Assembly (NCBI GenBank): GCA_951406725.2
Contig: OX597836.1
Location: 50,282,001 to 50,346,000, forward strand
Direction of reading: 5' to 3'
Length of the DNA stretch: 64,000 nt
Origin: Octopus vulgaris
Taxonomy: Eukaryota
The notes below the pieces were generated by a model that saw only the letters and a list, made by a program, of their open reading frames with translations, was not told the DNA's origin and made no database searches. Position 1 is the first letter of the stretch; the number at the start of each line of letters is the position of its first letter. Both the position numbers and the translations under genes were made by a program. Positions 47,948 through 62,639 of the stretch are shown one piece after another.

Positions 47948-48281
47948 GTATATACATATATATTCATAATTAGACAGATAGATACAAACATACATATTAT
48001 ATATATGTCTGTGTGAGTAGGACTAAATTATTCAATCTATCCTGACTTTAACATGGTAGGGAATGATTTGAGGGAGATTTAGCTGCTATGGAGGAATTTA
48101 ATTGGCTTGGAGTAAGGCTAGCAAAGAGGAAGAGGAGGAGGAGAGATTGGTTATTGGTTTATGTAGCAGATTATATTGGCAGCTGGGCAAGTAATTACAC
48201 ATACACGTGTGTGTGTGTGTATGTGTGTGAGTGAATACATGTATATATGGATGTGCGTGTGTGTATATATATATGTATATG

Positions 48282-48313
<32 letters not shown>

Positions 48314-48469
48314 GGTGAGAAAGTGGTGTGTGAAAGCACATGGTTGAATATATAGAAAATAGTAAAAAGTGAAAAAACTACAGAAGGCTTGTTTTAAAAG
48401 GTTAAAAAATATATTTGAGTCATTATGTCAGAAGAATGTCATAAAATTTTTTCATACAGTAACATAGTT

Positions 48470-48516
48470 TTTTAAGAAATTACCGGTTTCGTGTTAACTT
48501 TTCAAATTTCTCAAAA
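48470..48516 (-). ncRNA. Type I minimal hammerhead-like fold, U3:A8 variant (left arm)
   Basis: Mirror copy of 49692-49738. Confidence 0.7.
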
Positions 48517-49691
48517 CATCGTGTTACGTCTTCGTTATGAAGTGCAAAGAAGAGTTCCAGGTAGGGGGAGGTAATAAGCGATTTTTTCAGGTATAAGGGA
48601 GATAATCGCTTTATATTTATTTTCCCTTTTATTTAATGGGGTGAATTTCTCTGTATAAGAATGTTAGAGTGGTTAAGTTTGGGCTTATATTTTTCAATGA
48701 AGAATGTTTCCTTGTTTAGTCTAATTTGTGTTGGTGTTCCAATAGCACATTGATAAAATGGAAAGATTAAAAATTGTGGTAGTAGTTGCTTTGCGCATTT
48801 CTCAATATGCTCACTAAAGGGTATCATTCTGTATTCTGGGAATGCAATTTGTTGTCGATGCAGAGTGTATCTATGTCTGAGTGATAGTCCCGTGGACCCC
48901 ACGTAGTTTTGGTGGCAGCCCGAGCATCTTATGACATAAATTATGTTTTCAGAAGCACAAGTAAAATTAGATTTGATCTTGAATTTTTGTCCCTCTTTGA
49001 ACCTAGTAATAAGGAAAAACCGAAGATAATCAGCCTTTTAACCAAACCTCTCTCTAACATAAAAATTGACATCCTCTCAAAAGGGCTCAAATTTACTCCA
49101 ACTCCACGCAGAGCCAACCTAAATGAAATCAAGGATAATATAACAGAATTCTGCAGAAAATTAAGACTAGCAGAAGCATCAACCAGTTTCAATACTGAAG
49201 ATGAATCACTAGTCAAGAACAAAAATTCAAGATCAAATCTAATTTTACCTGTGCTTCTGAAAACATAATTTATGTCATAAGATGCTCGGGCTGCCACCAA
49301 AACTACGTGGGGTCCACGCGACTATCACTCAGACATAGATACACTCTGCATCGACAACAAATTGCATTCCCAGAATACAGAATGATACCCTTTAGTGAGC
49401 ATATTGAGAAATGTGCAAAGCAACTACTACCACAATTTTTAATCTTTCCATTTTATCAATGTGCTATTGGAACAACAACACAAATTAGACTAAACAAGGA
49501 AACATTCTTCATTGAAAAATATAAGCCCAAACTTAACCACTCTAACATTCTTATACAGAGAAATTCACCCCATTAAATAAAAGGGAAAATAAATATAAAG
49601 CGATTATCTCCCTTATACCTGAAAAAATCGCTTATTACCTCCCCTACCTGGAACTCTTCTTTGCACTTCATAACGAAGACGCAACACGATG

Positions 49692-49738
49692 TTTTGAGAA
49701 ATTTGAAAAGTTAACACGAAACCGGTAATTTCTTAAAA
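49692..49738 (+). ncRNA. Type I minimal hammerhead-like fold, U3:A8 variant (right arm)
   Basis: UUUUGAGAAAU-UUGAAAA-GU(UAAC)AC-GAA-ACCGGU-A-AUUUCUUAAAA: 11-bp stem I, palindromic ACCGGU stem III, GUA site. Confidence 0.7.
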
Positions 49739-49846
49739 AACTATGTTACTGTATGAAAAAATTTTATAACATTCTTCTGACATAATGACTGAAATATATT
49801 TTTTAACCTTTTAAAACAAGCCTTCTGTAGTTTTTTCACTTTTTAC

Positions 49847-49887
<41 letters not shown>

Positions 49888-50474
49888 CTCAGAAACCACC
49901 TTTATTTCTTTCTCCCCTCTTTCCCTCTAACTCTCTCTCCCTCTCTCTTGTTCCTCCTTCTCTTTCTCCAACTGTCTATCTATCTACCTATCTCTCCAAT
50001 CAAGAAGACTAAGGAATTCACTGAGACCATTCCAGAAGAGCTTCTTTTAGTTTCAGAATGTGTAGCAATTACCTGAACATGTAATACGTGTGTGTGTGTG
50101 GGTGTTTGCATGTGAAAAAGGGAAGGAGGGGTTACAGTGATATGCAATTTCCCTAAACTGATAAATGGTATTTGGTACCTGTAAATCTGGCAATCACTAT
50201 CGTTACAGCTAAACTGAAAGGTGGAAACACTCACAAAACTGATAATCTCAATTTTAATTCACCCCCCCTATTGCCTTCACTATCCAACTCCTCCTCTTCC
50301 TCCACCTCTCTCCAAACTTCTACAATTAATTCTCTCAGGCTTTTTCTCTCTCTCTCTCTCTCTCTCTTTCACTCTGCCCTTTTCGTTTTCGTGTGTGTAA
50401 TACACAAATGTGTATGTGTGCATGTGTCTATATAGATTATATGCACATATAGGTCTCTTCTATTTTTAATTATT

Positions 50475-51400
50475 ATAAATCTTCCACTGAGGAGGGAACC
50501 GGTTCCCAACAAAGATACAAGGCTCCATCTTTGGGACTATGTTTAACACAGACAAATTCACGTTTGCCACTCACAGATTGCACTTGTAATGTACGAATCA
50601 GCCGGTCGATTTCTCTTTCTGAAAATCCCAGTTCATCCAGATTCTCCTTTAAGCATTTACTAACAAAACCCAGTGCTCCAATTATTATCGGTATGAACAG
50701 GAATTCATAGTCTGGATACAGAAACTGGAGGTTTTGAGGCAATTGTCCATAGATATTCTCTTTTTCTTTGTTTTTCAAAGAGACATTTATATCTGCTGGG
50801 CAGCTGACCTCTATCATGGTACATACCTTTGCCCCTCTCTCCCAAACAACAATGTTATGTTTACATTTGACTGAAGTTTTGATGGGAATATTCCACCAGT
50901 ATTCCTTGAGTTGGTGTTTATGAATGTATTCCATAACAGAGGGATTTTCTAAGTTTATTTCAGGAGAGTCTTTTTTGCGGAGGGCATTGTAACTTGTTTA
51001 AGCAACAACATCGTTCCGCATTGGGAGGTTGTACCGTGACAACATTTTAGGACAGTTGCTAATCACATGCATAATGACTTCCACAGAAGCATGACATAGC
51101 CTACACATGGGGTTGCACCTTGGGATTACAAAAGCATCACTGCCTCTCTTGTTCACCAGGTACTTTGTGGCCATCTCCTGTTCATGGATTGCAAATGCAT
51201 AGCCTTCAAAGTGTGATGTGAAGTATGTATAGCACTTGTGACTTTCCATCCATGACCTCTCAGATGACAATTCAGTCCCGTTGTAGATCTGCATGGGTTG
51301 AAGCATATGTGACTGACAAAAGTTGTTAACTTTTTGCCCCCTTCCAACTGGTTAGGTCTGCACATGTCACCACTTTTCCCTCACCATCGGATTTTCAGGA
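50475..51400 (-). mobile_element. Second R4/Dong-like fragment (CCHC and REL endonuclease), degraded
   Basis: FAIHEQEMATK...CRLCHASVEVIMHVISNC, and MIEVSCPADINV...KEKENIY...IIIGALG. Confidence 0.8.
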
Positions 51401-62579: not shown

Positions 62580-62639
62580 AGGACAATTTTTGTGCTGATG
62601 ATGCCTATTGAGGCAGAAACAAATGTCCACAACTGTCCT
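62580..62639 (+). ncRNA. Canonical type I hammerhead ribozyme fold
   Basis: UUGUG-CUGAUGA-UGCCU(AUUG)AGGCA-GAA-ACAAAUGU-C-CACAA. GUC site after 62627. Stem I is extended by AGGACA/UGUCCU. Confidence 0.8.

What the first reader, a model, noticed from the sequence alone, without database searches (positions are those of the whole stretch)
48313..49852. RT-less Penelope palindrome: two GIY-YIG ends, each followed by a U3:A8 hammerhead
On the + strand the PLE N-terminus is joined directly to the GIY-YIG end with the RT deleted, and a 635-bp inverted copy precedes it. The arms differ at only a few positions, so the structure is young. Each arm holds UUGAAAA...GAAACCGGUA with an 11-bp stem I about 120 nt after the stop codon. 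This ties the variant hammerhead directly to a Penelope pLTR and gives a template for interpreting the smaller fold-backs. A read-through transcript from either strand would form about 635 bp of dsRNA.
Basis: partly seen in the sequence, partly recalled or inferred. Interest (0 to 1): 0.75.

Follow-up and report, generated by a model that had tools for sequence, protein, structure and literature searches.

The report
Ordinary Penelope fold-back with variant hammerheads
This is one broken, mirror-image copy of a common jumping gene, and both its shape and its variant self-cutting RNA motif are already described; the one new lead is that many sister copies begin right at the motif's predicted cut site, so the motif likely does cut itself in living cells.

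Summary
The palindrome is real: arms of 634-635 nt, 98.7% alike, each with a GIY-YIG remnant and a U3:A8 hammerhead motif. It is a dead head-to-head insertion of a Neptune/Nematis-type Penelope-like element (about 3.9 kb, ORF about 1,200 codons). About 1.72 kb (RT and zinc finger) is lost at a 6-nt microhomology, out of frame; that junction occurs once in the genome. The shape is the family's routine: 29 of 87 sampled insertions are fold-backs, 5 of 87 have internal deletions, 2 have both. Inverted pLTRs, microhomology deletions, one-sided tails and the U3-A8 core are all in print. Corrections: the spacer is internal ORF (codon about 441 on), not the N-terminus; the 11-bp stem I is a near-private variant; the two ribozymes lie on opposite strands, so they cannot form a cis-dimer. 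New lead: 5' ends of sister copies pile up at the predicted cut site (7 of 26 loci, p about 7e-6; 1 of 27 in a subfamily with a broken stem I), which suggests cleavage in vivo. The scan noted a similar footprint before, in another family of this genome.

The parts
48256..48313 (.). left flank, (TG/TA)n microsatellite; likely insertion target
   Evidence: parent copies also end in (TA)n
48314..48355 (-). PLE 'tail', about 42 nt, present on the left arm only
   Evidence: tail on exactly one arm in 28 of 30 fold-backs
48356..49001 (-). inverted 5'-truncated arm: GIY-YIG remnant, 3' UTR and pLTR; reaches 11 nt further into the parent than the right arm
48470..48516 (-). type I minimal hammerhead motif, U3:A8 core; predicted cut between 48481 and 48480
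48633..49001 (-). GIY-YIG endonuclease remnant with CCHH residues, no start codon, upstream CX4CxxC finger missing
48999..49001 (.). inversion junction, 3-nt microhomology shared by left arm and spacer
   Evidence: loose ends show the parent continuing at 48999 and 49001
48999..49224 (+). spacer: internal ORF piece (codons about 441-515) with the GxKF motif, just ahead of RT; begins at the 3' foot of a GC-rich hairpin where two other copies also begin
49219..49224 (+). deletion junction, 6-nt microhomology, about 1.72 kb of RT and linker removed, out of frame; one copy in the genome
49219..49576 (+). GIY-YIG endonuclease remnant to the stop codon
49692..49738 (+). type I minimal hammerhead motif: stem I 49692-49702/49728-49738, core 49703-49709, 2-bp stem II, palindromic ACCGGU helix III; predicted cut between 49727 and 49728
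49219..49852 (+). right arm, ends at the tail-less 3' end point
49853..49884 (.). right flank, (TA)n microsatellite; no target-site duplication can be read

Best explanation
This is a single non-coding, head-to-head insertion of a Neptune/Nematis-type Penelope-like retrotransposon between TA microsatellites, with about 1.72 kb including RT missing at a 6-nt microhomology; it was likely made in one event by an enzyme supplied from another copy, and its two hammerhead motifs are the family's ordinary pLTR motif, which likely self-cleaves as a dimer in parent transcripts but would be buried in duplex in any RNA read through this palindrome. Steps. Shown: anatomy, parent, both microhomologies, single-copy junction, tail on one arm only. 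Inferred: both target strands were nicked at (TA)n; cDNA was started once at each of the two 3' end points (with and without tail); the truncated ends were joined through 3 nt of microhomology. The RT loss came from a template jump during synthesis or a later microhomology deletion in the loop; the right arm resumes 11 nt from the start of the left arm, and near-symmetric arms are enriched in the family, which leans to an event at or coupled to insertion. No protein is predicted (no start codon, frameshifted join, no RT, no CxxC finger).
For: Parent copies carry spacer, about 1.72 kb of RT and the arm in line (15 of 15; RVT_1 in 2 of 2 ORF pieces; CX4CxxC finger before GIY-YIG and ORF start 1.3 kb upstream). 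Junction pattern 1 match genome-wide at up to 2 mismatches. Of 87 sampled insertions 29 are fold-backs, 10 are inversions without duplication, 5 have internal deletions, L128 and L142 have both, with 6- and 3-nt microhomologies. 17 of 18 close motif pairs among the first 100 matches are head-to-head (one strand mistyped and corrected by hand). Tail on exactly one arm in 28 of 30 fold-backs, the window's included, against 15 of 43 solo copies with a tail. Arm starts within 30 nt of each other in 11 of 29, expected 4.4, p 1.5e-4. The two arms share 14 differences from the family majority, with 6 right-only and 1 left-only, so they come from one source. Same structure in print: PMC3846280, PMC8557442.
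Against: No independent reads confirm the two junctions. Timing of the deletion is not resolved. Clade placement rests on the linker motif and (TA)n targeting, not on a tree. No activity of the hammerhead was measured; its stem II has only 2 pairs, and Rfam does not score it.
Confidence: 0.88

Rival explanations
1. The RT-less palindrome is itself a mobile non-autonomous element (a MITE-like or retrozyme-like derivative).
For: It keeps both pLTR ends, a tail and two motifs; pLTRs alone can drive insertion in trans (PMC3846280).
Against: The deletion junction has 1 match in 2.8 Gb at up to 2 mismatches; none of the other 28 arm-matching loci has the spacer within 1.5 kb; each rare allele of the arms is shared only by scattered single copies, no sibling carries two.
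Confidence: 0.04
2. The palindrome is an assembly artefact (fold-back chimera of long reads).
For: No contig of four public runs was seen to bridge either junction, but such contigs break in repeats and the runs are other samples.
Against: Arms differ at 8-9 places, only one has the tail, there is a 226-nt non-palindromic spacer from a different part of the parent, both junctions have microhomology, and 29 other fold-backs share the pattern.
Confidence: 0.04
3. A full-length copy with an inverted pLTR inserted first; the 1.95-kb loop was shortened later by hairpin-guided DNA repair, and the arms were kept alike by gene conversion.
For: The deletion ends 11 nt from the inner foot of the stem; microhomology deletions during repair are described for Penelope copies; the arms share 7 rare alleles.
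Against: Rare-allele density is similar in the unduplicated spacer (3 of 226) and in the arms, so a single slightly diverged source explains the sharing; near-symmetric arms are enriched in fold-backs without any deletion. This rival changes the timing, not the identity.
Confidence: 0.3
4. The pile-up of 5' ends at the predicted cut site is not ribozyme cleavage but joining at the self-complementary AATT that spans the site, or RT stalling before helix III.
For: AATT spans positions 0 to +3 in the GUA subfamily and is absent in control set B, so the control is confounded; L237 and one arm of L270 are fold-backs on that AATT; 13 of 30 upstream pLTRs run into or through the motif, so uncut RNA is often the template; HHR cleavage was not needed for insertion in vitro (PMC11167929).
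Against: The two other AATT sites in range (-27, +34) have 2 and 1 ends nearby against 7 loci; 2 of the 7 loci (L226, L279) look like the GUC subfamily, which has no AATT (read by eye); set B keeps helix III but shows 1 of 27; in five readable junctions base +1 is kept and H17 is not, in one H17 matches.
Confidence: 0.35

Closest known systems
Adineta vaga Pen2 derivative on scaffold 304 and Pen2a (Arkhipova et al. 2013, PMC3846280; passages read)
   Same: EN+ PLE insertion flanked by inverted pLTRs, head-to-head, tail on one end, internal microhomology-mediated deletion
   Different: That copy has a 10-bp TSD and short (about 200-nt) pLTR arms; here the arms are 635 nt, include the EN domain, and sit in (TA)n with no readable TSD
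U3-A8 minimal hammerheads of Schistosoma mansoni Cercyon PLEs (Cervera and de la Pena 2014, PMC4209133; parts 1-2 of 4 read)
   Same: Type I motif in the pLTR, U3-A8 in place of C3-G8, over a thousand copies, dual motifs 100-700 bp apart on opposite strands, palindromic helix III that needs a dimer
   Different: There helix II is 7-8 bp and helix I 4-5 bp; here helix II is 2 bp, helix I 7 bp or more, helix III has a CG insert; U3:A8 is the rule in this family (2,645 against 4 C3:G8 matches with the same helix III)
Neptune and Nematis clades of EN+ PLEs (Craig et al. 2021, PMC8557442; passages read)
   Same: C-terminal GIY-YIG with CCHH, CX2-5CxxC linker finger, GxKF motif, partial tandems, inverted 5'-truncated copy, 30-40-bp tail, microsatellite targets
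   Different: Parent has a long (about 440-codon) N-terminal extension; clade not fixed by a tree; nearest of 3 proteins found is an unnamed Mytilus edulis protein at 43%
Anolis PAc Poseidon element (Frangieh et al. 2024, PMC11167929; passages and part 2 of the main text read)
   Same: Two 3' end points that define the tail, AT-rich targets, both strands cleaved and extended, pLTR hammerhead
   Different: PAc has C3:G8 and its ORF starts inside the ribozyme; no RNA-seq reads were found ending at its cut site, whereas genomic copies here often begin at the cut site
Inverted-repeat Penelope copies as siRNA sources in Drosophila (PMC3681739; passages read)
   Same: Long inverted repeats that would give dsRNA
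   Different: siRNAs were mapped there; here no small-RNA or expression data were available

Membership tests
EN+ Penelope-like element (parent) | Single long ORF with RT followed by C-terminal GIY-YIG | tested here: met
   RVT_1 E 6e-8 and 7e-6 in two parent ORF pieces; L061 frame runs from RT into the EN remnant; all copies seen are broken, none intact
EN+ Penelope-like element (parent) | pLTR formed by partial tandem or inverted 3' end, optional 30-40-bp tail | tested here: met
EN+ Penelope-like element (parent) | Hammerhead motif in the pLTR | tested here: met
   motif at the 3' end of parents and upstream of the ORF start in 13 of 30 loci, whole or in part
EN+ Penelope-like element (parent) | RT groups with PLE/TERT clade in a phylogeny | not tested
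   no reference set at hand; no tree built
Neptune/Nematis clade | CX2-5CxxC finger between RT and EN, CCHH in EN | tested here: met
   C-x4-C-x2-C before the GIY-YIG in L066 and L075 translations; definition; the finger is deleted in both arms of the window copy
Neptune/Nematis clade | Neptune versus Nematis by RT phylogeny | not tested
   no tree built
Autonomous PLE (this locus) | Intact RT-EN ORF | tested here: not met
   RT deleted, join out of frame, no start codon
Non-autonomous PLE family or retrozyme (this locus) | Same derived structure at several loci, or tandem same-strand units | tested here: not met
   1 junction match; motifs on opposite strands
Type I minimal hammerhead ribozyme | Core C3-U-G-A-N-G8-A or compensated U3:A8, G12-A-A-A, N-U-H triplet, three helices | tested here: met
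   sequence; U3-A8 accepted as PLE variant in PMC4209133; stem I closes U:A in 56 of 58 set A copies; stem II only 2 bp
Type I minimal hammerhead ribozyme | Palindromic helix III that forms between two copies | tested here: met
   monomer helix III has a 2-nt loop and cannot be scored; cofold MFE -22.1 kcal/mol pairs ACCGGU between strands, explicit dimer -17.5 against 2 x -7.0
Type I minimal hammerhead ribozyme | Match to a curated Rfam hammerhead model | tested here: not met
   no hammerhead family among 117 matches at E<=1 in the window
Type I minimal hammerhead ribozyme | Self-cleavage 3' of H17 | tested here: inconclusive

The most novel reading that the evidence does not exclude
The genome records in-vivo self-cleavage by a U3:A8 hammerhead with a 2-bp stem II: cut RNAs, including the 170-nt piece from cut site to tail, are reverse-transcribed and inserted, so copies begin exactly at the scissile bond, while a sister subfamily with a broken stem I junction spreads without this footprint. 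With same-strand tandems rare and head-to-head copies common, cutting would have to use trans-dimers or protein help, and the strict one-tail-per-palindrome rule would mean that the two RT start sites are used on opposite target strands in one coupled reaction.
Probability: 0.5. Interest if true: 0.55.

Novelty: new member of a known kind. Interest (0 to 1): 0.3.

Why it matters
The locus itself matters little: it is one of many fold-backs of a decayed family. The family data around it bear on an open question, whether PLE hammerheads cut in vivo and what for (called unclear in PMC8557442; not needed in vitro and not seen in RNA-seq ends in PMC11167929). Two natural subfamilies, one with an intact and one with a broken stem I junction, give a ready pair for a test. 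The one-sided tail (28 of 30) and near-symmetric arms (11 of 29) are countable constraints on how PLEs make inverted insertions.

Tried and rejected
Rfam scan of the window: only microsatellite-driven miRNA hits, no hammerhead. Other copies or smaller fold-backs of this family in the window: none. Amplified RT-less family: rejected. An RT stop hot spot at the deletion's right breakpoint: three sampled copies start 0-15 nt from it (L157, L129, L190), about what local density gives; not supported. A separate template for the spacer: rare-allele density is like that of the arms; not supported. The idea that full-length copies always start downstream of the cut site: rejected, 13 of 30 run into or through the motif. 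Public runs: no RNA holder listed. Contigs of five runs laid on 48900-49300 and 49640-50340 gave no listed piece across either junction and skipped the TA-rich right junction; this is uninformative about presence, expression or editing, and shows only the parent's continuation at both breakpoints and the family's C at 49735. Lunse et al. (RNA Biol, PMC5785218) is not held; I saw only its title and the citing sentence in PMC6765202. Sequence look-up in earlier findings: nothing.

Full report
Observation. The window holds an inverted repeat with arms at 48356-48990 and 49219-49852, 98.7% identical, between TA microsatellites. Each arm has a GIY-YIG remnant (Pfam E 0.0044, under the curated cut-off) and, 116 nt after the stop, the motif UUGAAAA-GUUAACAC-GAAACCGGUA closed by up to 11 stem I pairs. 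The window lies in a 2.8-Gb animal genome, G000. The degenerate core pattern has 2,645 matches and the reversed control none; the C3:G8 version of the same pattern has 4.

Parent. Searches with the arm and with the spacer gave 3,063 and 566 first-look candidates, 40 scored each. Of 20 stretches fetched, 15 were compared at the junctions: all 15 carry the spacer, then 1,688-1,722 nt, then the arm. The missing part is RT (RVT_1 in 2 of 2 pieces) plus a C-x4-C-x2-C finger just before the GIY-YIG. That finger marks the Neptune and Nematis clades (PMC8557442, passages). The ORF starts about 20 nt after the tail, 1.3 kb upstream of the spacer; the spacer begins at codon about 441 and the ORF is about 1,200 codons. 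So the spacer is the GxKF pre-RT region, not the N-terminus. A search among longer proteins gave 3 hits, best 43% to an unnamed Mytilus edulis protein. No intact copy was seen. No tree was built.

Junctions. The left arm runs 11 nt further into the parent than the right arm and meets the spacer in a 3-nt microhomology (48999-49001). The spacer meets the right arm in a 6-nt microhomology (49219-49224) present at both parent breakpoints. The join is out of frame and occurs once in the genome at up to 2 mismatches. Only the left arm has the 42-nt tail. The arms share 14 differences from the family majority, 7 of them rare; 6 are right-only, 1 left-only; the spacer has 4 in 226. One source explains all three pieces. 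The 11-bp stem I comes from one of the shared rare alleles (2 of 111 other copies).

How ordinary. The exact subfamily motif has 184 matches. I fetched 96 of the first 100 places, as 87 loci (the last four were left out). 29 of 87 are fold-backs, 10 are inversions without duplication, 5 have internal deletions, and L128 and L142 are fold-backs with a deletion. Palindromes are over-sampled this way, having two chances to carry the motif. Among the first 100 of the 2,645 core matches, 18 neighbouring pairs lie within 8 kb: 17 head-to-head, 1 same-strand (the script says 18 because I mistyped one strand). Arm-to-arm mismatch is 1.2% here against a median of 3.1% (range 0.9-8.6%) in the 29 others, so the locus is among the youngest. 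The tail sits on exactly one arm in 28 of 30 fold-backs counting the window's; 15 of 43 solo copies have it (five loci with only an inverted tail were left out). Arm starts lie within 30 nt of each other in 11 of 29 against 4.4 expected (p 1.5e-4), and within 50 nt in 4 of 12 long-armed ones against 1.3 (p 0.02).

Mechanism. Inferred, using the in-vitro results for Anolis PAc (both strands cleaved and extended, two RT start sites that define the tail; PMC11167929): an RNP from another copy nicked (TA)n, made cDNA from each of the two end points, and the truncated ends were joined by microhomology, by annealing or by snap-back. The spacer starts at the 3' foot of a GC-rich hairpin (-10.7 kcal/mol in 80 nt), where 2 of 29 other spacer-bearing copies also start within 3 nt: a likely RT stop. 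Whether RT was lost by a template jump or by later repair is open (about 60:40 for at-insertion). A read-through RNA folds with 99% of the right arm paired and the sense hammerhead paired to its antisense copy. So the locus could give dsRNA but not an active ribozyme, and each strand carries one motif only. Expression was not testable.

A lead from the family. Three loci (L196, L197/198, L204), and one ambiguous (L211), began at the predicted cut site. I then tested this on copies chosen by an anchor about 44 nt downstream of the site. Set A: first 100 of 319 places, 97 distinct copies. 32 arms (26 loci) have 5' ends between -60 and +43; 10 arms at 7 loci fall at 0 to +2; p 7e-6 by loci, 6e-5 without L197, which was in the discovery set. 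Five further loci end at +6 to +12, the entry to stem I. Set B: first 100 of 638 places, 97 copies, a subfamily in which the pair closing stem I is U:U in 64 of 67 copies: 1 of 28 arms (27 loci) at the site; Fisher p 0.02 by loci, 0.04 without L197. Against this reading: AATT spans the site in most of set A and not in B, two of the junctions are fold-backs on it, a few arms were mis-called by the automatic aligner (L229, L236, L269, L308 and L305+ are missing from the near list; L262- was called +10 but reads +1 by eye), and the uniform null is crude. For it: other AATT sites have few ends, two of seven loci appear to lack AATT, and B keeps helix III. I put cleavage at about 0.6.

Comparison with print. 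U3-A8 cores in PLE pLTRs and dual motifs on opposite strands: PMC4209133 (parts 1-2 of 4 read). Inverted 5'-truncated copies and one-sided tails: PMC8557442 (passages). Inverted pLTRs with an internal microhomology deletion, and head-to-head palindromes: PMC3846280 (passages). siRNAs from Penelope inverted repeats: PMC3681739 (passages). Dimer cleavage: review PMC6765202 (passages); the primary paper by Lunse et al. was not available. The bioRxiv paper on retrozymes (10.64898/2026.07.22.740005) was read in part 1 of 5 only and adds nothing here. I found no report of genomic 5' ends piling at a PLE hammerhead cut site in searches, but the library is partial, and I read no supplements (PAc Fig. 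S2 and the Cervera supplement may bear on this). An earlier scan note (e1-8662772, seen after my test) reports the same footprint for a different family in this genome; I did not check it. Hammerhead numbering and the rule that stem I must close next to the core are recalled.

Verdict. Observation mostly right, novelty overstated. New member of a known kind; interest 0.3, carried mainly by the family-level footprint and the one-tail rule rather than by this locus.

Noticed in passing
window 62588-62632 (+): A second, unrelated hammerhead-like motif with the canonical CUGAUGA core, 5-bp stem II, 5-bp stem I and GUC triplet; 185 genome matches at up to 2 mismatches, control 0. Eight copies alternate in strand at G000:C1:150061352-150064654, about 350/560 nt apart.
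   Followed up: partly
window 50473-51351 (-): Broken 3' end of what looks like a restriction-endonuclease-type non-LTR retrotransposon (zinc-knuckle, zf-RVT E 0.03; PD..D-like stretch recalled, no Pfam hit) 620 nt from the palindrome.
   Followed up: no
L262:520-615: Fold-back whose two arms both begin at the predicted cut site, with a piece of 18S rRNA between them (Rfam RF01960, E 3e-11): a likely template jump onto a host RNA.
   Followed up: partly
L197/L198 (G000:C3:141729601-141730133) and L204: Short tandem units running from the cut site through the tail into the first 55 or 270 nt of the ORF region and joined back to the cut site, some inverted; they look like repeated copying of the 3' cleavage product.
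   Followed up: no
L061:4109, L062:3978, window 48999: Three independent insertions share a 5' end within 3 nt, at the 3' foot of a GC-rich hairpin; possible RT stop site.
   Followed up: partly
set B loci L295-L379: An abundant subfamily (638 anchor matches) lacks the base that closes stem I (U:U in 64 of 67), so it may have spread with an inactive or re-registered hammerhead.
   Followed up: partly
L119, L125, L135, L159, L168, L190 and others: 10 of 87 insertions show a 5' inversion without duplication, like L1 twin priming (name recalled).
   Followed up: no
L058 and L059 (G000:C14:74.61 Mb and 73.66 Mb); L008 and L010 (C13): Pairs of copies with the same end points or ORF lengths on one contig, probably segmental duplicates.
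   Followed up: no
L114/L115 (G000:C15:73477656-73477950): A head-to-head pair of canonical C3:G8 motifs with the same ACCGGU helix III but unrelated stems, another family.
   Followed up: no
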